NCBI GenBank assembly: GCA_024546615.1
Contig: GCA_024546615.1_5040.1
Source of the DNA: Escherichia coli
GTDB lineage: Bacteria; Pseudomonadota; Gammaproteobacteria; Enterobacterales; Enterobacteriaceae
DNA: 47,767 nt
Reading direction: 5' to 3' (one strand)
In this document: one piece after another, positions 1,976 through 41,627 of the stretch
Layout: each line of letters opens with the position of its first letter
Position numbering within the stretch: the first letter of the stretch is position 1
The notes under the pieces: generated by a model
What the model saw: only the letters and a program-made list of their open reading frames with translations
The model's database searches: none
What the model was told of the DNA's origin: nothing
Translations under genes and position numbers: made by a program

Positions 1976-3388
1976 ATGGCTAAGGCTGCTAAAACAAACC
2001 TTCATCTCATGCCAGCCCGGACTACCGATGGGCTGGTAAACGTTGTGTCCGGCTTAGGAACATGGAAAGCGAAACGCTCCCACAACATGTTCCAGTATGC
2101 TGCGCTGAATAACTGGCAACAACTTGACGCGGCTTACCAGACGAACTGGCTGGCTCGTCAGATTGTGGAAATACCCGCAGAGGATATGTGTCGTGAGTGG
2201 CGCACCATCAAGTGCAAGGAAGCTGATGACATCCGTATCGAAGAGGACCGCCTGATGGTCCCTGCCACCGTCCAGGAGGCTCTCACATGGGCACGTCTGT
2301 ACGGTGGTGGTGGTATTCTCATGCTGACCGGTCAGGACTTGTCAAAGCCGCTCGACGTGCGCCGTATTCGTAAAGGTGATTTGAAGCGTTGTATCGTGTT
2401 TGACCGTCATGACATGTCACCGCTCACTATGAACACCTGGGACATTCTGGCACCCAACTACATGATGCCGGAGTATTACACCATCACCGGCGGTGGGCAG
2501 CAAATCCACTGGACCCATTTTGCGCGTTTCAATGGTAAGCGTATCCCACGTCGCCAGATGGTCCAGACTCAGGGGTGGGGCGACAGTGAGTTACGCGTGT
2601 GCCTCGATGACATCATGGACATGGTTGCGTCGAAGGACGGCATTGCAGAACTGATGCAGGAAGCTAACGTCGATGTGGTTAAACGTGAAGGGCTGTCCGA
2701 TGAGTTAGCCAGTGACCAGGATGACGCAATTGTGTCGCGTTACACCCTGTTCAGTCAGATGAAATCACTGGTGCAGATGGCCCTGCTGGACGGTGATGAA
2801 TCGTATGAACGCAAGACGCTCGACCTGGGCGGTGTTGCACCGGTGCTTGAGACGTTCATGACGTGGATCAGTGGTGCAGCTGACATTCCTGTTACGCGCC
2901 TGTTCGGTACTTCAGCCAAAGGTTTAAACGCCACGGGTGAAGGTGACATGAACAACTACAATAACTCCATCCGCGCCAAACAGTTAACACAGGTTGACCC
3001 TGGGCTGCGCCAGCTTGATGAGGTGCTGGTGCGTAGCGCACTGGGTTACTGGCCTGACGACTTTAACTATGAGTGGCGACCACTCGCGCAACCTAACGAA
3101 TTACAGATTGCACAGGCCGCCAAAATCCGCGCTGATAAGGATATGCTGTATCTTGCCGAGGGGATAGTGAAGCCGTCACAAATCATGCGCAATCTCGAAT
3201 CATCTGAAGAATATCAGTTTGAAGATGGTGAGATAGATAAACAAGCTTCAGTTGAGTTGGATTACATCGCGTCTCCGCCCGATGACGAACCGAAACTCAC
3301 GGAACAACAGGACGCATTCTGGATACGTTATAACCAGTACGCGACTGATGGCTTGTCTCACGATGAGATAATGGCAAAACTATCCTAA
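1976..3388 (+). CDS. Portal protein (putative)
   Basis: 470 aa ORF immediately after terL; size and position typical; no motif check possible. Confidence 0.6.
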   Translation: MAKAAKTNLHLMPARTTDGLVNVVSGLGTWKAKRSHNMFQYAALNNWQQLDAAYQTNWLARQIVEIPAEDMCREWRTIKCKEADDIRIEEDRLMVPATVQEALTWARLYGGGGILMLTGQDLSKPLDVRRIRKGDLKRCIVFDRHDMSPLTMNTWDILAPNYMMPEYYTITGGGQQIHWTHFARFNGKRIPRRQMVQTQGWGDSELRVCLDDIMDMVASKDGIAELMQEANVDVVKREGLSDELASDQDDAIVSRYTLFSQMKSLVQMALLDGDESYERKTLDLGGVAPVLETFMTWISGAADIPVTRLFGTSAKGLNATGEGDMNNYNNSIRAKQLTQVDPGLRQLDEVLVRSALGYWPDDFNYEWRPLAQPNELQIAQAAKIRADKDMLYLAEGIVKPSQIMRNLESSEEYQFEDGEIDKQASVELDYIASPPDDEPKLTEQQDAFWIRYNQYATDGLSHDEIMAKLS

Positions 3389-4000
3389 TCTACCCGAGAT
3401 GTACCTTGCATACAGTCTCGAAGCGGTACATCTCGGGTATTTTTTGAAAAAGTAGAAGTATGCTTCTTGGTCGAATTTATTACCTTTCGAACGATTTATT
3501 TCTCTCGGCAATAGGCAGAGATTTTCCGAAGTATGTAACCCTCTGACATCCACGCCGCGCAACGGAATGATGTGGTCTACTTCGAGATTACCGCCAAGTA
3601 GCTTCGCGTATCGGTAAAGTTGCGAATAGACTTTTTCCACATCTTTACCGATTGAGGCCTGTGTTAAGTTTGCTCTTCTTTTGACCACTCTGGTTGCGAA
3701 CTTATCCTTGTTGGAAAGATAATGCCTTTTTGATTTATCAGCATACTTCTTGGGATTTTTTCTTTGCCAATCAATCACCCTTTCAATAATGACGTGTTTG
3801 TTTTGTTTGTAATACTCTTCTCTATATCGTGAAACTTTTTCTACGTTCTCGGATTGCCATTTCTTGTTGTATTGGGAAGTATGTGATTGATTCTGCTCAT
3901 TCCACTTTCTCTTGTACTCTTTTCTCATCTCTTTCCATTCTGAAATTCTAAGAGCATATTCGCTGTCTGTTTCAGTTTCTTTTTGCTTTGGTTTAGTCAT
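3380..4000 (-). CDS. HNH homing endonuclease
   Basis: C-terminal LEVDHIIPL...NLCLLPREINRSKGNKF HNH motif; basic N-terminus; RBS AGGTGG; inserted antisense between portal and head genes. Confidence 0.8.
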   Translation of the reverse strand: MTKPKQKETETDSEYALRISEWKEMRKEYKRKWNEQNQSHTSQYNKKWQSENVEKVSRYREEYYKQNKHVIIERVIDWQRKNPKKYADKSKRHYLSNKDKFATRVVKRRANLTQASIGKDVEKVYSQLYRYAKLLGGNLEVDHIIPLRGVDVRGLHTSENLCLLPREINRSKGNKFDQEAYFYFFKKYPRCTASRLYARYISGRLG

Positions 4001-4062
4001 GCTGTGCCACCTGTGATAATGTCGAAGTTAAAAAAAATCCCGACTTCCGCCGGGACATGTGG

Positions 4063-4629
4063 TTATGCTTTCCGATACCCCGCATCATACAGAATCTTAA
4101 CCGCACCGATTGACACGCCGGACAGCCGAACCATCTCATCAATCGCGCGTTCCGCTTCGGTGCGGAGTGGGCGCAGACGACCCGGTGCAAAACATGCAGA
4201 CCGTCCAGCACCTTTATCGTCCCAGTAAACGACCGCTACATCATTTCCGTCACTTGTGGTTTTATGTGCGATGACCTCAACAATTTCACCTTCCGCCGGA
4301 AGAATACCGTCGAAGTCAGTCTCTATGTCGTATGTACCAATGGTGAATTCCACATCAATACCAACCGGCGGCAAACCTGTTCCATCCCAGCCGACTGCCT
4401 CGTACTGTTCACGTGTGACAATTGCTGTTGCATGATTACACACCTGAGGTAAGTGACCAAGTAGCTTGTGACTTACGTGACTATCCATCCACTCATCATC
4501 TTCGTCTTTCTCCGGCTTATGGACGAAACCCCATACACTTCCTTCCTCTTCCTGTGCGATGAATTTAACACCCTCCGGCCAACCGCCACGCTTTGGTAAT
4601 TCCTGACGCAATAGTTCAAGTAATGTCAT
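4063..4629 (-). CDS. Acidic hypothetical protein (188 aa)
   Basis: About 34 D/E versus about 19 K/R; ATGA stop/start overlap with next gene; member of minus-strand operon driven by promoter at 5390-5418. Confidence 0.5.
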   Translation of the reverse strand: MTLLELLRQELPKRGGWPEGVKFIAQEEEGSVWGFVHKPEKDEDDEWMDSHVSHKLLGHLPQVCNHATAIVTREQYEAVGWDGTGLPPVGIDVEFTIGTYDIETDFDGILPAEGEIVEVIAHKTTSDGNDVAVVYWDDKGAGRSACFAPGRLRPLRTEAERAIDEMVRLSGVSIGAVKILYDAGYRKA

Positions 4630-4883
4630 TTTGTCTCTCCTGTTGCTTTAGCGATGGCTGCGCTGGCAAGCGACATTTCAGACTCATAGTGCTCATTCCA
4701 GTTTTGTTTTTGACCAGCCCGAAGCATTCTCCGCAACGCTTCCAGTAGTTCCGGAGCGGCGCAGAACAGTCTGGCGTCAGATTCGGTTTCTACTTGACCA
4801 ACAACCGTTACCCATTTTTCTGTTTCATCGGCAATGGTATATTCGCCAATGCTATCTTGCGTGTATACGAGCTTACGTGTCAT
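4626..4883 (-). CDS. Small acidic protein, paralog of 5056-5352
   Basis: Shares ELLEAL and C-terminal AAIAKATGETK with 5056-5352; duplicated DNA segment at gene 3' ends; RBS AGGAGA; start trimmed to MTRK. Confidence 0.5.
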   Translation of the reverse strand: MTRKLVYTQDSIGEYTIADETEKWVTVVGQVETESDARLFCAAPELLEALRRMLRAGQKQNWNEHYESEMSLASAAIAKATGETK

Positions 4884-5059
4884 CTCTCTTCTCCTGTTGC
4901 TTTTTGGATGCAAATAGCATCGAAACCACTATAGTTTTTATTGAAAATTGCACTTATGTTTTCAGCTGCCTTTTCACATGCATCATGATTAGAAAACTCA
5001 GCCGTTGTTACCGCTGGTCCTTGATATGACGCAACAATGATAAACAGAATCCATGTCAT
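4880..5059 (-). CDS. Small protein with hydrophobic N-terminus (about 59 aa)
   Basis: MTWILFIIVASYQG... read from minus strand; ATGA overlaps with neighbours; not in ORF track (below cutoff). Confidence 0.3.
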   Translation of the reverse strand: MTWILFIIVASYQGPAVTTAEFSNHDACEKAAENISAIFNKNYSGFDAICIQKATGEER

Positions 5060-5352
5060 TTTGTCTCTCCTGTTGCTTTAGCAATGGCTGCTTCAGCTTT
5101 CGAAGTGTTGACGTAAATACATGCGCGAGCTTGCAAATCCTGCAACGCTTCCAGTAGTTCTGAATTGATTTGGTATACGTCCGTTGCTAGCTCAACAATG
5201 TCAATGGTCGCGGAACCATCGCGTCCTTGTTCATCTTCACCGTATACTTCGAACTCACCGTTTAAAAAGTCTTCCGAACCGGATTCATACTGTGAAAGTT
5301 CGTATAAAAAATACATTGCATTGTTACCGTAGGTCAGTTCTCGTTTACCCAT
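5056..5352 (-). CDS. Small very acidic protein (98 aa)
   Basis: About 20 D/E versus 7 K/R; first gene after promoter 5390-5418; RBS AGGAGA; start trimmed from track ORF to MGKRELT. Confidence 0.5.
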   Translation of the reverse strand: MGKRELTYGNNAMYFLYELSQYESGSEDFLNGEFEVYGEDEQGRDGSATIDIVELATDVYQINSELLEALQDLQARACIYVNTSKAEAAIAKATGETK

Positions 5353-5389: not shown

Positions 5390-5418
5390 ACTCTATACCA
5401 CACTGACGGAGTCGTCAA
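5390..5418 (-). promoter_or_regulatory. Sigma70-like promoter TTGACG-17-TAGAGT overlapping palindrome TGACGGAGTCGTCA
   Basis: -35 is rc of 5413-5418, -10 is rc of 5390-5395, spacer 17; drives minus-strand acidic gene operon. Confidence 0.55.
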
Positions 5419-5420
5419 GC

Positions 5421-6206
5421 ATGTCACGACAAACAGAGCTGAATTATTATCGCCAGTTGAAACAGGTTGCCCGGCTTGTTCGTGAGGATGTGGACGCCAA
5501 CATCGTACCACTGGTGAAACAGCTTGCGCCGGAGTACACCGCTGACGGCTGGAGCGATACTATCACCTCGGCAATTAACCAGTTGCTTACACGGTGGCTT
5601 GGTGCGTTTGCTCGTCGTCAGGCTGAAACCATTGCGTCACAGTTTGTACAGACTGCGGCAAAGGATAACGCCCGTACATTCGCTATCAATCTGTACGGCG
5701 GTGATACACAGTTGCAGGAATATCTCAGCGCCGCATCGTATCAGAACGCTAAACTTATTCAGTCTATCCCGGCTCAGTATCTGGAGCAGGTGCAGAACAT
5801 TGTCATGACCAACATGCGTAACGGTATGCGCCCCAGCTACATTGAGCAGGCACTTGTTAAGCAATTTGGTATCACGGAACGTCGCGCTAAACTTATCGCC
5901 CGGGACCAGACCAGTAAAATACAGGGCGACATGAACCGCATTCGTCAGACGAACAGCGGTATTGAGTATTTCAAATGGGTAACGTCACAGGATGAGCGTG
6001 TGCGTCACAGTCATGTTGAAGTTGCAAAGCGTGATGTGGGATTCGGTGAAGGTGTATTCCGCTGGGATGATTTACCGGTTGTCGATGGTGTACCAACATT
6101 TCCCGGTCAGCCAATAAATTGCCGCTGTGTGGCAAGACCAGTTACAGCGGCACAGGTGGAGCGTAACAAAAAGGCCGGTAAAACCGACCCAAATGTTAAG
6201 CGTTAA
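5421..6206 (+). CDS. Head morphogenesis protein, Mu F / SPP1 gp7-like
   Basis: C-terminal motif ERRAKLIARDQT...YFKWVTSQDERVRHSH...NCRC typical of Phage_Mu_F family. Confidence 0.8.
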   Translation: MSRQTELNYYRQLKQVARLVREDVDANIVPLVKQLAPEYTADGWSDTITSAINQLLTRWLGAFARRQAETIASQFVQTAAKDNARTFAINLYGGDTQLQEYLSAASYQNAKLIQSIPAQYLEQVQNIVMTNMRNGMRPSYIEQALVKQFGITERRAKLIARDQTSKIQGDMNRIRQTNSGIEYFKWVTSQDERVRHSHVEVAKRDVGFGEGVFRWDDLPVVDGVPTFPGQPINCRCVARPVTAAQVERNKKAGKTDPNVKR

Positions 6207-11172: not shown

Positions 11173-11219
11173 GTCTCCTCTTGGGTTATAGTTACCACCG
11201 TCTTAAGAGGAGGAATTCC

Positions 11220-12800
11220 ATGTTCGTAGAAAGAGCAAAAAAAATACATAAAGGGAAATACGACTATTCCAAAGTGGAATATGTAAATAATAAAACACCC
11301 GTGACGATAGTTTGTCCGGTGCACGGTGATTTCGTTCAAATACCGCAGGGACACCTGAACTGCGAAATAGCGTGTCCAAAATGTAGAATCGACGATGTTT
11401 ATGACCGAATGATACAGCGGGCACGGGAGATTCATGGTGACAGATACTCATACGTCCGGGAATCATTCGTTTCCGTAGTCAAGAAAATGTCTATAATTTG
11501 TCCTGTACACGGGGTGTATCGGATGACACTGAACAACCATGTTCACAATGGTGCGGAATGTAAACCATGCGCACTGGCGAAACGTGGAGAATCACAACGG
11601 AAGACACTTGACAGTTTTGTGGAAGACGCGAAAAAAGTTCATGGTGACAGATACGATTATTCCAAAGTTATTTACGAGGGCAACAAAAAGAAAATAACCA
11701 TCACTTGTGCAAAACATGGTGACTTCAAACAGGAACCATATTCACATCTTTCGGGAAGAGGTTGTCCAAAATGCGGTCTCGAATCCAGAGCAAGCAAAAG
11801 TATGAGTACTCTTGAAAGATTCATTCACAAAAGCAGAGCTATACACGGTGACAAGTATGATTATTCTAAAGCGGTGTATAAAGGTAGTGACCAAAAACTA
11901 ACCATAATTTGTCCGGTGCACGGTGAATTTTCCCAATACGCAAATAACCACTCTACTCTTGGTCATCAATGCCCGACGTGTTCAAAAGCGGGTGTGTCCC
12001 GAGGTGAATTTGAAGTCTTCAACTTCGTCCGTTCCATCTGTCCCGATGCGGTACAATCCGACCGTACAACCATTGGACCGCTGGAACTTGATGTTGTAGT
12101 GCCGTCGCGCAATCTGGCAATTGAATTTAACGGTCTGTACTGGCACGATGAGCGCACGAAAGACAAGAAGTATCACATCGCCAAGCGTCACCGCGTGGAA
12201 GCCGCAGGATACCGTCTGATAAGTATCCGTGAGGATGTCTGGAATGAGCGCCGTGAGCAGGTAGAAAATATCATTCGCAACGCGCTCGGCGTGACATCCG
12301 ACAAAGTGTTTGCCCGTAAATGTGACATCGTGGAAGTTTCGACGTCTGAAGCGAAGGTATTCATGGAGAAACACCACGTGCAGGGTTTCCGGGGTGCGAC
12401 CGTTCATTATGGTTTGCAACATGATGACACCTTAGTTGCTGTGATCAGTCTGACAAACTGGCAGAAAAAGAACGAATGGGAACTGGTACGATATGCAACC
12501 GCGTGTAATGTCCCGGGTGGACTGTCCCGCTTGTGGAAACATGCTACCACGGTTAACAGCATCGTCCGCGCCTATTCATACGTTGACCGGGATTTGTTCA
12601 GCGGTTCCAGTTACGCTAATGCCGGTTTCATACTTTCAGCCACAACAGTAGGATTCAGGATCGTAAATGGTTGCACAACCGAATCGCGTGAGAAGTGGAA
12701 CCGCGCACCAGACGGAATGACACAGACGCAATGGTACGAATCAGAAGGTGTATCACGCATCTACGATTCTGGACAGGACAAGCTGTTATGGGTAAAATGA
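11220..12800 (+). CDS. Homing-endonuclease-like protein: four tandem zinc-ribbon modules, Vsr/DUF559-like nuclease core, unknown C-domain
   Basis: Four repeats of ...HGDxYDYSKV.Y...K.TI.CP.HG.F.Q.P..HL.G.GCPKCG; then ELDVVVP...LAIEFNGLYWHDE resembling Vsr FVDGCFWH motif; RBS AGGAGG; inserted after capsid terminator. Confidence 0.6.
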   Translation: MFVERAKKIHKGKYDYSKVEYVNNKTPVTIVCPVHGDFVQIPQGHLNCEIACPKCRIDDVYDRMIQRAREIHGDRYSYVRESFVSVVKKMSIICPVHGVYRMTLNNHVHNGAECKPCALAKRGESQRKTLDSFVEDAKKVHGDRYDYSKVIYEGNKKKITITCAKHGDFKQEPYSHLSGRGCPKCGLESRASKSMSTLERFIHKSRAIHGDKYDYSKAVYKGSDQKLTIICPVHGEFSQYANNHSTLGHQCPTCSKAGVSRGEFEVFNFVRSICPDAVQSDRTTIGPLELDVVVPSRNLAIEFNGLYWHDERTKDKKYHIAKRHRVEAAGYRLISIREDVWNERREQVENIIRNALGVTSDKVFARKCDIVEVSTSEAKVFMEKHHVQGFRGATVHYGLQHDDTLVAVISLTNWQKKNEWELVRYATACNVPGGLSRLWKHATTVNSIVRAYSYVDRDLFSGSSYANAGFILSATTVGFRIVNGCTTESREKWNRAPDGMTQTQWYESEGVSRIYDSGQDKLLWVK

Positions 12801-14227: not shown

Positions 14228-14677
14228 TTAACTTCCGGTACTCCCAAAACCACCCTGACGGTCAGTTTTCTGTTGGGGTGGTTCATTGATTTGCTTAAAC
14301 GTCACTTGTTCGACCGGAATCAACATCCCCTGTGCAATCCGGTCACCGTGATTAACCCAGAACACACCTTCACAATGGTCAACATCCTGCGTCAACTTGA
14401 CCATCAATTCACCGGTGTAGTCACTGTCAATGACGCCGGTGCAATTTGACAGACGGACATCACTGTTAAATCCGTGACCACTGCGTGAGTAAATCATCAA
14501 AGCGTACCCAACTGGTATATCAAATTTAAGCCCTGTAGGAATGATTACGGGCTCACCGTTGCGAACTGGTACTGGTTCATCAAGTACAGCATAAATATCG
14601 AAGCACGCGCTTCCTGACGTTGCATACGTTGGAATACGTGCGCCAGGGCGTGACAGGTAAATGTTCATCTCACTCAT
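14228..14677 (-). CDS. dut: dUTP diphosphatase (dUTPase)
   Basis: Motifs SRSGHG, GVIDSDYTGE and C-terminal GGFGSTG; track ORF trimmed to MSEMNIY start with RBS GGAGAG. Confidence 0.8.
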   Translation of the reverse strand: MSEMNIYLSRPGARIPTYATSGSACFDIYAVLDEPVPVRNGEPVIIPTGLKFDIPVGYALMIYSRSGHGFNSDVRLSNCTGVIDSDYTGELMVKLTQDVDHCEGVFWVNHGDRIAQGMLIPVEQVTFKQINEPPQQKTDRQGGFGSTGS

Positions 14678-14756
14678 TTCTTCAACTCTCCAGCCGTATT
14701 GTGCGCGGTTAAGCGCGATAAATTTATCTTTCGTTGTGAATAAAACTGTTCCAGAT

Positions 14757-15155
14757 TTATGCTTTACTGCCCACATATTTAATCACCATATATCCTGGTC
14801 TGGCGGAAAGTGAGACCTTGTGTCCGTATATCCACGCGGTTTTGTATACGTATGTTAACTGTGCGGTGCGCAATTTAATGTCCGAATATGTTGCTTTAGT
14901 TCTCCAGTTCCATGTGAACTCATCGCCCGGTTTTGCTCTTTCAAGGGCGTCAAGGAGGATGATACGCTCATACGACCTTACCCCACGTGATACGCGTCTC
15001 CTGGTTTTGGGCTTCCCTCGTGCCAGACTTCGTTTATCTGGTTTTCCACTTTTTGTAATTCGTATCAGTCTCTGTGATGGCTGTGCGACATCTTGAGGGA
15101 CACTCTCTTCTGGAACAGAATTTATTTTTTTTAAAATATAAGCTGCAAATGACAT
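14757..15155 (-). CDS. Basic hypothetical protein (132 aa)
   Basis: Lys/Arg-rich; first gene downstream of promoter at 15187-15215; RBS AGAGAGG. Confidence 0.5.
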   Translation of the reverse strand: MSFAAYILKKINSVPEESVPQDVAQPSQRLIRITKSGKPDKRSLARGKPKTRRRVSRGVRSYERIILLDALERAKPGDEFTWNWRTKATYSDIKLRTAQLTYVYKTAWIYGHKVSLSARPGYMVIKYVGSKA

Positions 15156-15186
15156 GGTGTTATTCCTCTCTGTAATTTACAAAATG

Positions 15187-15215
15187 AGTATATCAGTGGC
15201 TGACGCATTCGTCAA
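15187..15215 (-). promoter_or_regulatory. Sigma70-like promoter TTGACG-17-TATACT overlapping palindrome CTGACGCATTCGTCAA (15200-15215)
   Basis: Spacing read directly; at left boundary of repeat copy A. Confidence 0.55.
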
Positions 15216-15510
15216 TACCTCATTTACCCCGAAATACCCGAGGCATCGGGGTGGCGAATTTACTTTCACAATCATAGGTTTACGCGCATAACCGAAAACC
15301 ACGTACATTCTTCCCCTCTTCCCTCTTATAAACCCTATAATATATACATTATGTATTATACTACATTTATACTATATATTATATACTCTCTATTACTACT
15401 AATTACTATTTTATAAGGGTATAAGGGTAATAAGTAATAAGTAACAGAAAACTAAAGAGTTTTTTATACCCCGATGACATACCCCGAACGAGTTTCAACG
15501 GGGTATGTGG
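15211..15510. repeat. Repeat copy A (~300 bp, about 93% identical to 47502-47767 plus 1-35): hairpins, AT-rich TATA-rich core, TAAGGGTA/ATAAGTA short direct repeats
   Basis: Direct by-eye alignment of the two copies; hairpin CCCCGA-N13-TCGGGG near 15228-15252 and ATACCCCG-N12-CGGGGTAT at 15479-15506. Confidence 0.85.
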
Positions 15511-15559
15511 ATACCGGTGCAACGTTGTGTGATAATGTCTTGACAAATGAGGGCACACC

Positions 15560-16063
15560 ATGTCAGTCAATATTACAGAATTGCAAAAAGCTAAAGGTAT
15601 CATCCGCGACAGGCTCGGGCGATTTGTTAAAGCCAGTAATCGCGTCGTTACTGTTGGGATACATGAGGACGCTGGTGAACATCCTGACTCTGGTATGACG
15701 AATGCGCAGCTTGGTGCATTGCTGAATTACGGTAACCCGAGTAATAAATTGTATGGTAATCCCGCACCTATCCCTCCTCGTCCCTGGCTCGTCCCCGGAG
15801 TGGAGAGTGGTAAACAGGATATCGTGGACACCATCGCTCACGGTGTAGCTAATGATTTGCCGCTTGAACAGGTACTGGAGCAAGTAGGTGCATTTGCGGC
15901 TGGTGCGGTACAACAATACATGACTGATTTACATCAACCGCCAAACAGCGCGTACACTATTGCTCAAAAGGGTTCCAGCAATCCGCTTATTGACACGGGC
16001 GCTTTACGCGCGAGCGTGACATACAAGGTCAGTAACGAAAAACCTGATGAGGGTATCTTATGA
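15560..16063 (+). CDS. Tail completion / HK97 gp10-like virion morphogenesis protein
   Basis: C-terminal PLIDTGALRASVTYKV motif typical of gp10-like family; RBS GAGGG; first gene after repeat copy A. Confidence 0.5.
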   Translation: MSVNITELQKAKGIIRDRLGRFVKASNRVVTVGIHEDAGEHPDSGMTNAQLGALLNYGNPSNKLYGNPAPIPPRPWLVPGVESGKQDIVDTIAHGVANDLPLEQVLEQVGAFAAGAVQQYMTDLHQPPNSAYTIAQKGSSNPLIDTGALRASVTYKVSNEKPDEGIL

Positions 16064-32346: not shown

Positions 32347-32375
32347 ACTCTAAACTACTTTGACGCACTCGTCAA
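32347..32375 (-). promoter_or_regulatory. Sigma70-like promoter TTGACG-17-TAGAGT overlapping palindrome TTGACGCACTCGTCAA (32360-32375), embedded in 3' end of upstream gene
   Basis: Spacing read directly. Confidence 0.5.
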
Positions 32376-32948
32376 CGGTAAAACTAACTTTTCTGCTTCC
32401 TGAATGTACCAGTCGTAATTCAGTGCTCCCCAGTCGAAGTCTTTAGCGTCGGCACACTCTGTCACCTTCCATCCTGCACACATACTTGTTTCGCGCACTG
32501 CATCGTGCTTACTGCGACTCTTCGTGTGGATACGCTCGTCCCACGGTGTACCAATGCTGTCGAGGTCGCCCGGTTGACCTGTAATCTCACGCATTACCGC
32601 ATTGTACACATCGTCCTTGACACCATTCTTACGCTTCCATGTACCTGGTGTACCAGTGGGCGGTAACAGCTTGACCAGTGACCCACCGTTACGCGAGATA
32701 AATACACGTGTGGTATTCTGCATCTCCTGTTCAGCGCCCCACTCAGGCCAACGCATCACCAGACGTGCCGAACGAGGTACTTTGGCGCGCAGCATGAAGT
32801 CGAACGGGTCACGGTGCTGCGTGATGAACGTGCGGATGTCAGTGTCAAACAGAAGTGCGGCTTCAGCGGCGCGGGCAACAATCATCGCCGATGGGTCTTG
32901 ATGCCACTGGTATTTGTACTCGTAACACCCTTTTCTTTTAATTTTCAC
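32355..32948 (-). CDS. Hypothetical protein (197 aa) sharing GTPWDERIH motif with 37785-38834
   Basis: Motif DSIGTPWDERIHTKS versus DSTGTPWDERIHSTS in the 349-aa protein. Confidence 0.45.
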   Translation of the reverse strand: MKIKRKGCYEYKYQWHQDPSAMIVARAAEAALLFDTDIRTFITQHRDPFDFMLRAKVPRSARLVMRWPEWGAEQEMQNTTRVFISRNGGSLVKLLPPTGTPGTWKRKNGVKDDVYNAVMREITGQPGDLDSIGTPWDERIHTKSRSKHDAVRETSMCAGWKVTECADAKDFDWGALNYDWYIQEAEKLVLPLTSASK

Positions 32949-33828
32949 GGGTTGCCTCCAGCATTTCTAAAATTCGATTGTCCCATTTCAACCATTCGGT
33001 ACAACCATCAAAACCAGATAGTCCAGCATTAACGAAAGAAGAATGAGTTAGTTTTTCGATAAATTCCATTTTTCCACCTATGCCAGATAAAACTCGGAGT
33101 AACTGAAAATCAAATGGCGTACTTCTTTTCAATTTCCTCAAGCGATATTTATAATTATTGCTGATACCGACCTTCATATATTCCCCACCTTTGGAAGCAA
33201 GTACATAAAGGGAAGCCATCTGGTTACGTTTAAATCCACTCTTAGAACAGTCTTGACATCCTTGTCCACCGGATACGTGATCTATAGCCAATTTTTCAAA
33301 ACTACCGTGAACAGGGCAAATTATCTTTATTTTATGATGATTACCTTTATATTGAGATTCCGAATAATCATACTTATCCCCATGTACTGCGCGGGCTTTC
33401 TCAATCCATTCTTCGGTGTTATAAAGAGGAAGTCGTCCTTTTCCAGGACCTCCTGCGCATTTCGCGCACCCGTGGCCTTTTAGATGATTGCCGGCTAATT
33501 GGAGGAATTCCCCATGCTCTCGACAAATGATTATTATTTCTGAATGTCGTTTTTTATACTTAACCTTCGAATAATCATACTTATCTCCATGTACTGCACG
33601 GGCTTTCTCAATCCATTCTTCAGTGCTGGATTTTTTTGTCCCACCACAAACTGGGCAGCCGGAACCAGAACAGTGAGACGTGGGTTCTTGTCGGAAATCT
33701 CCATGCAATCGACAAACAATGGTCACTTTATGTTTTGAAGTACGATACTCGACCTTCGAATAATCATACTTATCTCCGTGTACCGCACGGGCTTTCTCAA
33801 TCCATTCTTCTGTGTTCAATCTTCTCAT
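32938..33828 (-). CDS. Homing-endonuclease-like protein: three tandem zinc-ribbon modules plus C-terminal T5orf172 (GIY-YIG-like) domain
   Basis: Three repeats of EEWIEKARAVHGDKYDYS...; C-terminal YVLASKGGEYMKVGISNNYKYRLRKL...GCTEWLKW; contains three ~55-bp DNA direct repeats. Confidence 0.6.
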   Translation of the reverse strand: MRRLNTEEWIEKARAVHGDKYDYSKVEYRTSKHKVTIVCRLHGDFRQEPTSHCSGSGCPVCGGTKKSSTEEWIEKARAVHGDKYDYSKVKYKKRHSEIIIICREHGEFLQLAGNHLKGHGCAKCAGGPGKGRLPLYNTEEWIEKARAVHGDKYDYSESQYKGNHHKIKIICPVHGSFEKLAIDHVSGGQGCQDCSKSGFKRNQMASLYVLASKGGEYMKVGISNNYKYRLRKLKRSTPFDFQLLRVLSGIGGKMEFIEKLTHSSFVNAGLSGFDGCTEWLKWDNRILEMLEATREN

Positions 33829-35348
33829 TCTATTACCATTATGTAATTATTCACATCTCGCTGATAGAGAGATTTCACAATATCAGTCTCCAGATTCAAC
33901 ATTGTTGTTTTTTCCCAAGACTTACATATGGATTCCACCAAAATTTCATATTTGTTTTCATAAAAAATGACGATTCCGTCAGTATTAGTTTGCGGTACGA
34001 TTAATCCGGGTACACGAGTTACAAGTTGGTCTACCAACATTGCCAAACAGAGTTGACCTGTAATAGTAATACTCAGGAGACACTTATGGTCACAAAATGG
34101 GCTAAATTTACTCCCCATGTTCCCAAATGTACCATTAAGAGCAAGTTTCAATGCCGCATCAACTGTTTTATCTCCCGCTCGTTTTGCATCACGACGACGA
34201 ATGAACAGTTGTTCATATACGTCGCAAAAAGTTTCACTAAGGTGTTCCGGATAGTACCTATTCTTTATACTAATGGAAGGGTACATACTTGTACAGTCTT
34301 TGTTTTGTAAATTGTGTGTTTGGGTAGAATGCACAACGTAGTTCGGAATACTACTGTGAATACCTCCCAATCCGAACGAATATTCGACACCATCAACTGT
34401 GACGGTCATATCACTAAACACACCTTTTGTGGTCAGTAATTCGTCCTGTTGTTTCTTCGTGAGTACAACCCCACGAATGCGTTCCAGAATTTGATTGAAC
34501 TCCGGTCGTTCGAATTTGATATAAGGGGGTATGCAATCTGCAAGTGCAATACGTTCACGAATGGTTACTCCGGAGCAATCTACCCCGGCCTTTTCCAGCT
34601 CGTGAACGAATATATCTTTGCCGATTTTAGTGTCGGCGTGGTTCATGAAGTTACGTCCGTATTGCTTTGTCAGTTCCTCACGGAAATGGATTTTGTCGAG
34701 TGAACGTACAAAGAATTTCAGCGTCTCTCGCACGTCGTGTTTGTTATATACGATGAGGATATCTTTCTGCGCATCGTTCAGCACCATTCCGACCGGGAAT
34801 GGCAGGTCTTTTACGTTGGGGGACTGCATGCCCACTTCCAACGCCTTCAGACTGGTGCGCCGGGCTTTATTATCAAAGTGATGAATTTTGTACAGGTCAA
34901 TCTGCTCGAAAATCTGGTCGCGGTCCCATACAATTTCGGGCCACTGACCTTCGGGTTTAATTTGTGATTGTGCTTTTGTGTAAATCTGTTCCAGTGTACA
35001 GCCTGGTGTATTGACCACGTAGTGCAACACCGGATAGTCGAATGCCAGGTTATTAAATCCAATCCCACGGGCCTTACTACATCCCAGGTTGAACACAAAT
35101 TCGATTAATTGCGGTTGCTCGTTTTTGCGGTCACTAATCTCGAAGATTAACTCCATACCCGTCGCAGCGTGAATAAATGAGGCAGTGAAGATATTCGGAT
35201 ACGTCTCGATGTCCCATCCCCAGTCCCGCGGGTCCAGTGGTGCAACGCTGGAGAACGCCGAATCAGCCCCACAGTGAGGGCAATTGTGGAGGTCAGCGGG
35301 ATAATTTTTACCGCAAGTTGCATCCTCGCATTTTGATAAATAGTGCAT
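33825..35348 (-). CDS. Compact family-B DNA polymerase with 3'-5' exonuclease motifs and N-terminal zinc finger
   Basis: Exo I WDIETY, Exo II FNNLAFDYPVL, Exo III YNKHDVRE; motif A DCTSMYPSI, motif B KLALNGTFG, motif C TNTDG; N-terminal C-x4-C-x11-C-x2-C. Confidence 0.7.
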   Translation of the reverse strand: MHYLSKCEDATCGKNYPADLHNCPHCGADSAFSSVAPLDPRDWGWDIETYPNIFTASFIHAATGMELIFEISDRKNEQPQLIEFVFNLGCSKARGIGFNNLAFDYPVLHYVVNTPGCTLEQIYTKAQSQIKPEGQWPEIVWDRDQIFEQIDLYKIHHFDNKARRTSLKALEVGMQSPNVKDLPFPVGMVLNDAQKDILIVYNKHDVRETLKFFVRSLDKIHFREELTKQYGRNFMNHADTKIGKDIFVHELEKAGVDCSGVTIRERIALADCIPPYIKFERPEFNQILERIRGVVLTKKQQDELLTTKGVFSDMTVTVDGVEYSFGLGGIHSSIPNYVVHSTQTHNLQNKDCTSMYPSISIKNRYYPEHLSETFCDVYEQLFIRRRDAKRAGDKTVDAALKLALNGTFGNMGSKFSPFCDHKCLLSITITGQLCLAMLVDQLVTRVPGLIVPQTNTDGIVIFYENKYEILVESICKSWEKTTMLNLETDIVKSLYQRDVNNYIMVIE

Positions 35349-40957: not shown

Positions 40958-41157
40958 GTGAGTGGATTAAGTGTAGTGAGCAGATGCCTGAACCTGGTGT
41001 TCCGGTGTTAGTAGTCAGTATGATTGGTAACGCCGTTCAAAACAATGTGTACGAATGGGACGGTCGAACATGGAGCGATTTTCGAAACGATTATGGCGAA
41101 TATGAACCAGAAGTATTTACACACTGGATGTCAATGCCGGAGGCTCCGCGTCTATGA
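40954..41157 (+). CDS. DUF551-like protein
   Basis: MSEWIKCSEQMPEPG... paralogous to 7469-7669. Confidence 0.55.
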   Translation: MSEWIKCSEQMPEPGVPVLVVSMIGNAVQNNVYEWDGRTWSDFRNDYGEYEPEVFTHWMSMPEAPRL

Positions 41158-41627
41158 CACCAACACTTCTCGAATGGCAACGTAAACACGGTATCACGGC
41201 TGAGGCGCTGGCTGACCTTGTGACAATGGTGGGACTGGATGTCCCACGCTCAAGCAAAGGTACGCCTGAAGCGCGTGTACAGGATGAGGCGCGACTACTG
41301 GCAAGCAAAATGGGCTGGCGACTTTTTCGCAATAATGTGGGTGTTCTGAAAGATGAGCGGGGTGTACCGGTACGCTACGGCATCTGCAACGACTCCCCGG
41401 CGATGAACAAGCGTATCAAGTCGAGCGACCTCATCGGTATCCGCCCCGTGGTTATCACGCCCGATATGGTCGGGTCAACCATTGGACAGTTTGTGGCGCG
41501 TGAGGTAAAGAAAGCCGGGTGGAAGTATAAAGGTACGGAACACGAACAGGCACAGCTTGCATTTGGGACACTTATTATCGGGCTGGGCGGTGATTTTAAA
41601 TTTTGGTCAGGGGAGGGGGAGTTGTAA
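41154..41627 (+). CDS. VRR-NUC domain nuclease
   Basis: WRLFRNNVG...SDLIGIRP...REVKKAG pattern; typical neighbour of phage helicase/primase. Confidence 0.55.
   Translation: MTPTLLEWQRKHGITAEALADLVTMVGLDVPRSSKGTPEARVQDEARLLASKMGWRLFRNNVGVLKDERGVPVRYGICNDSPAMNKRIKSSDLIGIRPVVITPDMVGSTIGQFVAREVKKAGWKYKGTEHEQAQLAFGTLIIGLGGDFKFWSGEGEL

What the first reader, a model, noticed from the sequence alone, without database searches (positions are those of the whole stretch)
3380..4000. Third endonuclease family (HNH) inserted antisense between portal and head-morphogenesis genes
A clear HNH motif (EVDHIIPL...N...N) in a basic 206-aa protein. Together with the Vsr-like and T5orf172-like genes, the genome carries three different free-standing endonuclease families, each placed next to a conserved essential gene (portal, capsid, polymerase). 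This is unusual density for a genome under 50 kb.
Basis: partly seen in the sequence, partly recalled or inferred. Interest (0 to 1): 0.4.

Follow-up and report, generated by a model that had tools for sequence, protein, structure and literature searches.

The report
Optional HNH nuclease gene beside portal
A Klebsiella-type phage genome carries a real, optional HNH nuclease gene next to its portal gene; it looks like an ordinary selfish homing-endonuclease cassette, a kind of element already well documented in phages.

Summary
The ORF is real: 3380-4000, minus strand, 206 aa, pI 9.9. It is under strong purifying selection (dN/dS 0.04-0.13). The window is a Jedunavirus-type myophage genome.

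The HNH call holds, but only with family-level evidence. The protein alone falls below Pfam thresholds. An alignment of 120 homologues shows D142, H143 and N160 invariant, with N169 and N174 in at least 90%. One homologue passes the Pfam HNH cut-off. A domain-only profile hits only Cas9 HNH domains in the PDB (E=1.7e-4).

The gene is optional. About 12 related phages carry it and at least 25 lack it. Three empty sites show a clean junction: about 680 bp (3382-4062) replaces a roughly 25-bp terminator hairpin. The cassette is AT-rich (39% vs 49% GC). It always travels with a distinct allele of the portal 3' end. One relative has a deleted copy and another has lost the catalytic histidine.

The best reading is a free-standing homing endonuclease gene. 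Cleavage and homing are inferred, not shown.

The other two nuclease-like genes also exist, but their nuclease-domain matches are weak. The "unusual density" claim fails, because relatives carry as many or more. This is a new member of a known kind, of low to moderate interest.

The parts
3380..4000 (-). HNH endonuclease ORF (206 aa, including stop codon)
   Evidence: ORF list. PHROG 1035 at E=7e-19. dN/dS 0.04-0.13. Family alignments.
3473..3589 (-). Catalytic HNH core, residues 138-176 (LEVDHIIPL...GLH..N...N.SKGNK), with predicted beta-beta-alpha secondary structure
   Evidence: D142, H143 and N160 are invariant; N169 and N174 are in at least 90% of 120 homologues. The region aligns to Cas9 HNH domains with the DH motif and FnCas9 N995 in register. 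AF2 secondary structure is E-E-H.
3668..3892 (-). Five tandem 15-residue basic helical repeats (residues 37-111), each starting with Asn. Presumed DNA-binding region (inferred).
   Evidence: Repeat register. AF2 gives a chain of 14-residue helices with pLDDT above 90. The family consensus shows the same N..E..(15) periodicity.
3383..3442 (-). C-terminal tail, residues 187-206. This is incidental read-through of the ORF into the portal terminator hairpin and the last portal codons.
   Evidence: The tail is frameshifted in KpV79 and RCIP0080 while the hairpin is kept. Its pLDDT is below 50. Distant homologues end shortly after GNKF.
3391..3445 (+). Strong hairpin plus U-run: terminator for the portal transcript. 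It is carried by the cassette and replaces the hairpin of the empty site.
   Evidence: 15-bp stem, -27.8 kcal/mol, z=-6.55. Sequence shown.
4007..4012 (-). Shine-Dalgarno AGGTGG, 6 nt upstream of the ATG
   Evidence: Read directly from the sequence.
4027..4056 (-). Intrinsic terminator of the upstream antisense operon. It lies between the 188-aa ORF and the HNH gene.
   Evidence: Terminator scan. -13.5 kcal/mol. Annotated as a terminator in KpV79. The same element flanks an unrelated 84-aa ORF in pKp383.
3382..4062 (.). Inserted segment relative to the empty sites of FZ14, KB2 and Geezett
   Evidence: The two anchor sequences are 697 bp apart here and 38-40 bp apart in the empty sites.
3126..3388 (+). 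Portal 3' tract linked to the HNH gene. It is a distinct allele, with HNH+-specific substitutions concentrated in about 3332-3388.
   Evidence: Identity over 100-column blocks is 97-99% to the two closest HNH+ genomes (82-89% in the HHU1 remnant) and 61-64% to ZCEC13, KB2 and Geezett, while the body of the portal gene is mostly 84-97%. Other HNH+ alleles are 75-97% over 40-nt blocks. Fixed differences and the FZ14 recombinant are shown. The allele is found by megablast only in HNH+ records plus FZ14.

Best explanation
The gene is a free-standing homing endonuclease gene (HEG) of the HNH (beta-beta-alpha-metal) superfamily.

The protein has two parts. The N-terminal part is basic and built from 15-residue helical repeats; it presumably binds DNA. 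The C-terminal part is a cysteine-free HNH core of the Cas9/McrA type.

The gene forms an AT-rich cassette of about 680 bp. The cassette sits at the convergent junction between the portal gene and an antisense accessory operon of a Jedunavirus-type phage. On insertion it replaced the short bidirectional terminator hairpin of the empty site. It supplies a new portal terminator on one side and lies behind the antisense operon's terminator on the other. The nuclease is therefore probably made at a low level by read-through transcription.

Proposed mechanism (inferred): in a mixed infection with an HNH-less relative, the enzyme nicks or cuts that genome in or near the last roughly 60 bp of its portal gene or the adjoining hairpin. 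Recombinational repair from the HNH+ genome then copies in the cassette together with the adjoining portal 3' allele (co-conversion). The HNH+ genome is protected by its own substitutions at that site.

Shown here: a real gene under selection, the HNH motifs, the presence/absence polymorphism with exact junctions, the linked flank, and decayed copies.

Inferred: nuclease activity, the target site, homing itself, and the mode of expression.
For: HNH identity:
- D142, H143 and N160 are invariant and N169/N174 are in at least 90% of 120 homologues.
- PHROG 1035 matches at E=7e-19.
- 13 of 120 members hit PF01844 at E<0.01, and P0221 exceeds its cut-off.
- All 14 PDB hits of the domain profile are Cas9 HNH domains, with the catalytic residues aligned.
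- The predicted secondary structure is beta-beta-alpha.

Mobility:
- The gene is present in 16 records (about 12 distinct phages, one of them the HHU1 remnant). It is absent from at least 25 other relatives that share the locus.
- The junction is clean: 697 bp against 38-40 bp between the same anchors.
- GC is 0.39 against 0.487 for the genome.
- Whatever the rest of the variable block contains, the gene always abuts the portal 3' end.
- It is linked to a divergent portal 3' allele: 12 of 12 HNH+ phages carry it against 1 of 26 HNH- phages. Fisher p=5e-9, not corrected for shared ancestry.
- The life-cycle signs expected of a HEG are present: the HHU1 copy is deleted and out of frame, and the JustaPhage copy has H143R.
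- Four distant family members sit next to TerL, portal or the major capsid gene. One of them is antisense after the capsid gene.
- The same interval in sister phages holds other HEG types.

The general behaviour of free-standing HEGs is established knowledge (PMC2988022, PMC10448857).
Against: - No cleavage or homing data exist for this protein or for any member of its family that I could find.
- The single sequence is below Pfam and NCBIfam thresholds.
- The interval is a generally hypervariable mosaic region. Unrelated small ORFs occupy the same site in pKp383, KpV52 and ZCEC13. Ordinary recombination could therefore produce the presence/absence pattern and the linked flank without any nuclease-driven drive.
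- Purifying selection is strong over dS up to 0.38. This could equally mean a function that benefits the phage.
- The linkage statistics ignore phylogenetic non-independence.
Confidence: 0.62

Rival explanations
1. The gene is a passive accessory ('moron-like') nuclease gene. It is shuffled with its neighbours by ordinary homologous recombination in a hypervariable region. The nuclease serves the phage, for example by degrading host or competitor DNA, excluding co-infecting phages or countering a defence system. It does not drive its own spread.
For: The site carries alternative unrelated cargo in relatives: an 84-aa ORF in pKp383, a 73-aa ORF in KpV52 and a 40-aa zinc-ribbon ORF in ZCEC13. 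The right-hand terminator is shared between the HNH cassette and the pKp383 cassette. Conserved 39-nt junction repeats in the antisense block could mediate shuffling. dN/dS is very low, 0.04-0.13, over substantial divergence.
Against: The gene always abuts the conserved portal gene whatever else the block contains. A cluster of HNH+-specific substitutions lies in the last roughly 55 bp of the portal gene. Decayed copies, including loss of the catalytic His, are tolerated. Distant family members also sit beside TerL, portal or capsid genes. PADLOC was not run, so any link to defence or anti-defence is untested.
Confidence: 0.22
2. The protein is a packaging-associated HNH protein like HK97 gp74. 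It would be a cofactor of the terminase for cutting the genome ends, which would explain its place in the terminase-portal module.
For: The gene lies next to the TerS-TerL-portal cluster. Cos-adjacent HNH proteins are common in phages (PMC3592412; Kala et al. 2014, as cited in PMC10276810). Some distant family members sit just upstream of TerL or after the portal gene on the same strand.
Against: The gene is absent from most close relatives, which package DNA without it. It tolerates deletion (HHU1) and H143R (JustaPhage). It is antisense to the packaging genes and sits behind a terminator. TerL has its own RNaseH-like nuclease domain. The core lacks the [CxxC]2 zinc site described for cos-adjacent HNH enzymes in PMC3592412; the protein has only 2 Cys, neither in a CxxC pair.
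Confidence: 0.05
3. The protein is a structure-specific resolvase of the T4 endonuclease VII type, as the PHROG 1035 label implies. It would resolve branched DNA before packaging.
For: The best PHROG match carries the label 'endonuclease VII', and several GenBank homologues are annotated that way. T4 endonuclease VII also belongs to the His-Me finger superfamily (established knowledge).
Against: Neither the protein nor any of the 120 homologues matches Pfam Endonuclease_7. There are no zinc-binding cysteines. The gene is optional within the genus. The closest solved relatives by profile are Cas9 HNH domains, not endonuclease VII.
Confidence: 0.04

Closest known systems
Free-standing HNH homing endonucleases of T-even phages (mobA-E; MobE is the characterised one)
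   Same: They are intergenic, optional HNH genes next to a conserved essential gene. They spread together with flanking markers, and their expression is limited by the surrounding transcription signals (PMC2988022, PMC2790892).
   Different: The architecture and sequence family differ. Mob proteins have the HNH domain at the N-terminus and a distinct C-terminal region. Here the HNH core is C-terminal, cysteine-free, and preceded by 15-residue helical repeats. No activity data exist for this protein.
HNH domain of Cas9 (FnCas9 9ehf/5b2o, SaCas9 7enh); McrA-type HNH (COG1403)
   Same: These are the only solved structures found by the domain profile. The D-H, N and N catalytic positions are in register, and neither has a zinc-cysteine site. 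JGI names some family members 'McrA'.
   Different: The similarity covers only about 40 residues, at E=1.7e-4. The protein is a small stand-alone phage protein with no RNA guide and no other Cas9 domains.
PHROG 1035 ('endonuclease VII') phage protein family
   Same: This is the best family match, E=7e-19 over residues 2-194. Homologues occur in Jersey-like Salmonella phages and in Vibrio, Ralstonia, Xanthomonas and Shewanella phages.
   Different: The label is an annotation, not a tested function. The family does not match Pfam Endonuclease_7. Most members also have an N-terminal CxxC...CxxC zinc ribbon that this protein lacks.
HEG hot spots next to essential genes (ICP1, T5-like and other phages; Barth et al. 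2023)
   Same: Several HEG classes (T5orf172, HNH) sit near or inside structural, terminase and polymerase genes. Repetitive DNA-binding modules (DUF723/CapR-like) are present. The HEGs mark boundaries of genetic exchange (PMC10448857).
   Different: That study did not mention Klebsiella phages or portal genes and did not treat this HNH family.
HK97 gp74-like, cos-adjacent HNH proteins
   Same: An HNH protein encoded within the packaging gene cluster.
   Different: Those proteins are conserved, co-oriented with the terminase genes, and carry a [CxxC]2 zinc site (PMC3592412). This one is optional, antisense and cysteine-free.

Membership tests
HNH / His-Me finger (beta-beta-alpha-metal) nuclease superfamily | A catalytic His, usually preceded by Asp, at the end of the first strand | tested here: met
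   D142-H143 within VDHIIPL is invariant in the 22- and 120-sequence alignments. It aligns with the DHIIP motif of Cas9 HNH domains.
HNH / His-Me finger (beta-beta-alpha-metal) nuclease superfamily | A structural Asn and a metal-ligand Asn/His at the characteristic spacing | tested here: met
   N160 is invariant and N169 is in at least 90% of sequences. The spacing is H+17 and then +9. N169 aligns with FnCas9 N995, the residue that is Ala in the 5b2o/5b2q chains.
HNH / His-Me finger (beta-beta-alpha-metal) nuclease superfamily | A score above the curated threshold of an HNH profile | tested here: inconclusive
   The query scores 16.4-18.3 bits on HNH_4 against a cut-off of 22, and 14 bits on HNH against 21.4. 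NCBIfam gives nothing. Family member P0221 passes PF01844 with 24.8 bits against 21.4, and 13 of 120 members reach E<0.01. The PDB profile hit has E=1.7e-4.
HNH / His-Me finger (beta-beta-alpha-metal) nuclease superfamily | The beta-beta-alpha fold | tested here: inconclusive
HNH / His-Me finger (beta-beta-alpha-metal) nuclease superfamily | Metal-dependent DNA cleavage | not testable with these tools
   Needs biochemistry.
T4 endonuclease VII family (Pfam PF02945) | A match to the Endonuclease_7 profile | tested here: not met
   Neither the query nor any of the 120 homologues hits it.
T4 endonuclease VII family (Pfam PF02945) | A Cys4 zinc site around the catalytic motif | tested here: not met
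   The protein has only two Cys (C162, C191), and neither is in a CxxC pair.
Free-standing homing endonuclease genes (functional class) | Presence/absence polymorphism at one locus among close relatives, with a defined junction | tested here: met
   The anchors are 697 bp apart here and 38-40 bp apart in the empty sites. The gene is present in about 12 phages and absent in at least 25.
Free-standing homing endonuclease genes (functional class) | An intergenic position beside a conserved essential gene | tested here: met
   The gene abuts, and overlaps by 9 bp, the 3' end of the portal gene.
Free-standing homing endonuclease genes (functional class) | Flanking sequence inherited together with the gene (co-conversion tract) | tested here: met
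   The portal 3' allele is linked to the gene, and FZ14 is the single recombinant. This is a correlation only. It is compatible with co-conversion but does not prove it.
Free-standing homing endonuclease genes (functional class) | Site-specific cleavage of the endonuclease-less allele and biased inheritance in mixed infection | not testable with these tools
   Needs cleavage assays and phage crosses.
Packaging-associated HNH (HK97 gp74-like) | Conserved across the phage group and co-oriented with the terminase genes | tested here: not met
   The gene is absent from most relatives. It is antisense and sits behind a terminator.

The most novel reading that the evidence does not exclude
This gene belongs to a very large family of small phage nucleases: 82,937 cluster representatives at E<=1e-3. 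The family has almost no Pfam coverage and no solved structure. Its members carry a variable number of 15-residue Asn-initiated basic helical repeats, usually preceded by a zinc ribbon. These repeats might form a previously undescribed modular DNA-recognition array fused to a cysteine-free, Cas9-like HNH core. In Jedunaviruses the enzyme would then act as a driver that spreads a particular portal C-terminal allele through the population.
Probability: 0.2. Interest if true: 0.55.

Novelty: new member of a known kind. Interest (0 to 1): 0.25.

Why it matters
- For annotation: this gene is labelled 'hypothetical protein' in most of the related records examined. It can be named an HNH endonuclease and probable homing endonuclease. 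The PHROG label 'endonuclease VII' should not be read as a resolvase function.
- For phage therapy genomics: Jedunaviruses are candidates against Klebsiella. The result explains part of the mosaicism around the portal gene and flags a nuclease that is dispensable.
- For biology: it adds one more example to the established picture that homing endonuclease genes sit at recombination boundaries next to essential phage genes.
- A possible wider interest lies in the family itself. It is large and unstudied, and its repeat-built N-terminal region has an unknown mode of DNA recognition.

Tried and rejected
- Single-sequence and full-length-profile searches of the PDB found nothing useful. The best relevant hit was a Cas9 HNH domain at E=0.2. 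Only the domain-trimmed profile worked.
- NCBIfam gave no hit.
- No sigma-70-like promoter was found between the upstream terminator and the ATG. An autonomous promoter was therefore not assumed.
- The packaging-HNH and endonuclease-VII/resolvase readings were considered and set aside; see the rival explanations.
- The idea that the ORF's C-terminal 20 residues are functional was rejected, because they are frameshifted in two alleles while the underlying hairpin is conserved.
- Kala et al. 2014 could not be read because it is not held. It is cited only through PMC10276810 and from general knowledge.
Full report
**1. What is there**

The window starts with terminase small (83-535) and large (525-1973) subunit genes. 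A Phage_portal_3 portal gene follows (1976-3388), then a Mu-F-like head-morphogenesis gene (5421-6206). By nucleotide identity of about 91% it is a Jedunavirus-type myophage; the relatives are Klebsiella phages JD001, KpV79 and RCIP0030 and Escherichia phage ZCEC13.

The ORF named in the finding is exactly where stated: 3380-4000 on the minus strand, 206 aa, ATG start. AGGTGG lies 6 nt upstream of the start. EVDHIIPL occupies residues 140-147. The protein has pI 9.9.

It is the last gene of an antisense block that also holds ORFs at 4063-4629, 4626-4913, 4880-5059 and about 5056-5350. So it is not a lone insertion between the portal and head-morphogenesis genes.

**2. Is it a real gene?**

Yes.
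- Seven alleles from related phages differ by dS up to 0.38 while dN/dS is only 0.04-0.13.
- A profile of first-round homologues finds 82,937 cluster representatives at E<=1e-3 and 9,510 at E<=1e-30 in the 1.84-billion-protein library.
- Almost none of the listed homologues has a precomputed Pfam domain.

**3. Is it an HNH nuclease?**

The single sequence does not pass curated thresholds.
- Pfam HNH_4 scores 16.4 bits against a cut-off of 22, and Pfam HNH scores 14 bits against 21.4.
- NCBIfam gives nothing.
- The PDB search by sequence gives nothing.

The family-level evidence is consistent.
- PHROG 1035 (labelled 'endonuclease VII') matches at E=7e-19 over residues 2-194.
- In 120 homologues the columns D142, H143, P146, G154, N160 and K172 are invariant. 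V141, I144, I145, L147, H156, N169 and N174 are at least 90% conserved.
- 13 of the 120 members hit PF01844 at E<0.01, and one (P0221) exceeds the gathering score with 24.8 bits against 21.4.
- A profile trimmed to the roughly 60-residue core hits 14 PDB sequences, and all of them are Cas9 HNH domains. The best is FnCas9 at E=1.7e-4. DH aligns to DH, and the family's N169 aligns to FnCas9 N995, which is Ala in the 5b2o/5b2q chains.
- AF2 predicts strand-strand-helix across the motif.

Structure searches were uninformative.

The protein has only two cysteines, neither in a CxxC pair. It therefore lacks the zinc site of T4 endonuclease VII and of the cos-adjacent zinc-ribbon HNH enzymes (PMC3592412). 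No member matches Pfam Endonuclease_7. I conclude that it is an HNH-superfamily nuclease of the cysteine-free Cas9/McrA-like type. It is not an endonuclease VII family member.

**4. Architecture**

- Residues 37-111 are five tandem 15-residue units, each beginning with Asn.
- AF2 models them as a chain of 14-residue helices with pLDDT above 90.
- The family consensus shows the same periodicity. Longer members match the profile in 2-4 stretches, which points to variable repeat number.
- Most members also start with a CxxC...CxxC zinc ribbon, which this protein lacks.
- That the repeats bind DNA is an inference from their basic composition and position.

**5. The last 20 residues are an accident of position**

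The ORF runs through a 15-bp-stem hairpin (3391-3438; -27.8 kcal/mol, z=-6.55) followed by a U-run. This is the portal terminator. The ORF ends 9 bp inside the portal gene. KpV79 and RCIP0080 have frameshifts in this tail while keeping the hairpin. The tail's pLDDT is below 50. Distant homologues end just after GNKF.

**6. It is an optional cassette with exact junctions**

tblastn finds the protein at 90% identity or more in 16 phage records, about 12 distinct phages. The shared right flank of the locus is found in 51 records.

Two anchors frame the site: CACGATGAGATAATGG (portal) and CCGATACCCCGCATCATAC (the end of the 188-aa ORF). They are 697 bp apart in the window, RCIP0030 and KpV79. They are 38-40 bp apart in FZ14, KB2 and Geezett.

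The empty site is a single hairpin, CTGGCCCAGTAACGGGCCAG, of about -17 kcal/mol on either strand. It contains the portal stop codon. The KpV52 authors annotate it as a terminator.

The cassette (about 3382-4062) replaces that hairpin and changes the portal C-terminus from ...KLAQ* to ...KLS*. It has a terminator for each of the two convergent transcription units:
- the portal hairpin at 3391-3445;
- a minus-strand terminator at 4027-4056.

The right-hand terminator is not specific to the HNH cassette. In pKp383 it flanks an unrelated 84-aa ORF at the same site. KpV52 has a 73-aa ORF there and ZCEC13 a 40-aa zinc-ribbon ORF. The site is therefore a general hot spot for insertions.

The HNH ORF has 39% GC against 48.7% for the genome. 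That places it among the lowest 600-bp windows.

**7. Linkage to a portal allele**

Over 100-column blocks, identity to relatives across the body of the portal gene (about 2167-3066) is mostly 84-97%. In the last roughly 220-260 bp it changes:
- 97-99% to the two closest HNH+ genomes (RCIP0030, KpV79) and 82-89% to the HHU1 remnant over 100-column blocks; other HNH+ alleles (JD001, JustaPhage, KLPPOU148, RCIP0080) are 75-97% over 40-nt blocks;
- 61-64% to ZCEC13, KB2 and Geezett, and down to about 30% in one 40-nt block that contains an indel.

There are two clear protein alleles of the portal C-terminus. By megablast, the HNH-type allele is found only in the HNH+ records and in FZ14. FZ14 is a recombinant: it carries the HNH-type allele up to about position 3310-3332, then the HNH-less sequence and an empty site.

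Within the last roughly 55 bp, all HNH+ genomes share a set of substitutions that every HNH-less genome lacks. Two of these change amino acids (G to Q and A to T). The association is 12 of 12 against 1 of 26 (Fisher p=5e-9). This counts related genomes as independent.

This pattern is what co-conversion of flanking markers by a free-standing homing endonuclease would produce. The clustered substitutions are candidate immunity changes at the target (mechanism from PMC2988022). It is also what a simple mosaic boundary would look like. Barth et al. note that nuclease genes often sit at such boundaries (PMC10448857).

**8. Signs of a selfish-element life cycle**

- HHU1 retains only a deleted, out-of-frame remnant, fused near the divergent promoter region.
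- JustaPhage carries VDRIIPL, so the catalytic His is lost. Its dN/dS is somewhat higher, 0.08-0.20.
- In JustaPhage the HNH is the only gene in the antisense block, and in JD001 one other gene is present. Yet the HNH always abuts the portal gene.

**9. The same neighbourhood holds other endonuclease genes in sister phages**

- In KB2, the homologue of the 188-aa protein carries an HNH_3 domain inserted in frame (E=3.6e-11). KB2 also has a T5orf172 gene before the head protease gene.
- Geezett has a T5orf172 gene between TerL and the portal gene.

Four distant members of the present HNH family were located on metagenomic contigs:
- one sits directly upstream of TerL (P0003);
- two sit between the portal and scaffold genes (P0011, P0009);
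- one is antisense right after the major capsid gene (P0008).

**10. The other two nucleases and the density claim**

- ORF 11181-12800 (+, 539 aa) follows the major head gene. It has DUF723-type zinc-finger repeats and a weak MTES_1575 (Vsr-like restriction endonuclease fold) match of 21.8 bits against a cut-off of 38.2. It matches PHROG 559/3339, labelled 'HNH/homing endonuclease', at E=5e-128.
- ORF 32938-33828 (-, 296 aa) has the same kind of zinc-finger repeats plus T5orf172/MUG113, only just above the Pfam cut-offs (21.8 against 20, and 24.9 against 22.3). It lies between two DNA polymerase ORFs, 33825-35348 and 32355-32948.
- Many relatives have an unsplit polymerase gene, so this gene is optional too.

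Three nuclease-like families are therefore present, although two of the nuclease-domain assignments are weak. The number is ordinary for the genus:
- KpV79 has this HNH plus three genes annotated 'endonuclease'.
- KB2 has an HNH_3 gene, a T5orf172 gene and a gene annotated 'endonuclease VII'.

It is also ordinary for HEG-rich phages in general. T4 has 15, which is 11% of its coding potential (PMC2988022), and other HEG-dense lineages are described in PMC10448857.

**11. Expression (inferred)**

No promoter-like site lies between the terminator at 4027-4056 and the ATG. Transcription most likely comes by read-through from the antisense promoter near 5390-5418 (KpV79 annotates the corresponding promoter). 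That would keep nuclease levels low, as is described for T4 free-standing endonucleases (PMC2988022).

**12. Verdict**

- The HNH interpretation is supported once family-level profiles are used.
- The 'unusual density' interpretation is not supported.
- The element is best explained as a free-standing HNH homing endonuclease cassette. Homing is inferred from comparative anatomy, not demonstrated.
- It is a new member of a known kind.
- The only part with wider potential is the large, uncharacterised protein family and its repeat-built N-terminal region.

Noticed in passing
window 32355-35348 (-): The DNA polymerase is encoded as two ORFs (33825-35348 and 32355-32948). A 296-aa T5orf172/MUG113 gene with DUF723-type zinc fingers (32938-33828) separates them and overlaps both neighbours by a few bases. 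Many relatives (KB2, KpV52, MEW1, PEAT2) have an unsplit polymerase about 0.8 kb shorter. Their polymerase flanks are only about 79-80% identical, against 87-93% in relatives that match through the insert region. Whether splicing or two-subunit assembly restores the polymerase was not examined.
   Followed up: partly
window 11181-12800 (+): A 539-aa protein lies directly after the major head gene. It has repeated DUF723/DUF4379 zinc fingers and a weak MTES_1575 (Vsr-like PD-(D/E)xK) match, and it matches PHROG 559/3339. It shares its zinc-finger module with the T5orf172 protein but has a different nuclease domain. It is absent from KpV79 at this position.
   Followed up: partly
window 4623-4661, 4877-4915, 5053-5091: A 39-nt sequence (97% identical between two copies, 64% in the third) recurs at the stop/start junctions of consecutive antisense ORFs. 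It covers the last codons (…AIAKATGETK), the Shine-Dalgarno sequence and the overlapping ATG. It could serve as a recombination linker for shuffling ORFs in this hypervariable block.
   Followed up: no
L006 (KB2) 3806-4681: KB2 gp53 keeps the N- and C-termini of the window's 188-aa protein (4063-4629). In between it has an HNH_3 nuclease segment inserted in frame (E=3.6e-11). This is a HEG fused into a host ORF. The KB2 paper noted the chimerism (PMC10276810).
   Followed up: partly
window 4063-4629 (-) and homologues in L002, L005, L006, L007: The 188-aa protein (PHROG 7798, function unknown) has N- and C-terminal ends that are nearly identical in all relatives. Its middle 80-100 residues are completely different in each phage. 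This is a hypervariable-core protein of unknown role.
   Followed up: no
L011 (JustaPhage) 1731-2351: The JustaPhage allele of the HNH gene has Arg in place of the catalytic His143 (VDRIIPL) but is otherwise intact. It is probably an inactive copy.
   Followed up: partly
L008 (HHU1) 3374-3741: HHU1 has an internally deleted, out-of-frame remnant of the HNH gene, and the rest of the antisense block is missing. The deletion end-points share short repeats (CTTTTTG; ATTATCACAGG).
   Followed up: partly
window 41154-41627 (+): A 157-aa ORF upstream of the primase gene matches part of PHROG 93, 'endonuclease' (positions 311-432 of 613, E=1e-19). It has no Pfam hit. It may be a fragment of a fourth nuclease gene. 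KpV79 has a full 'endonuclease' gene just before its primase.
   Followed up: no
window 14757-15600: This is the lowest-GC stretch of the genome (0.37 in 600-bp windows). It lies next to the dUTPase gene (14228-14776, -). The 132-aa ORF at 14757-15155 has no Pfam or PHROG match.
   Followed up: no
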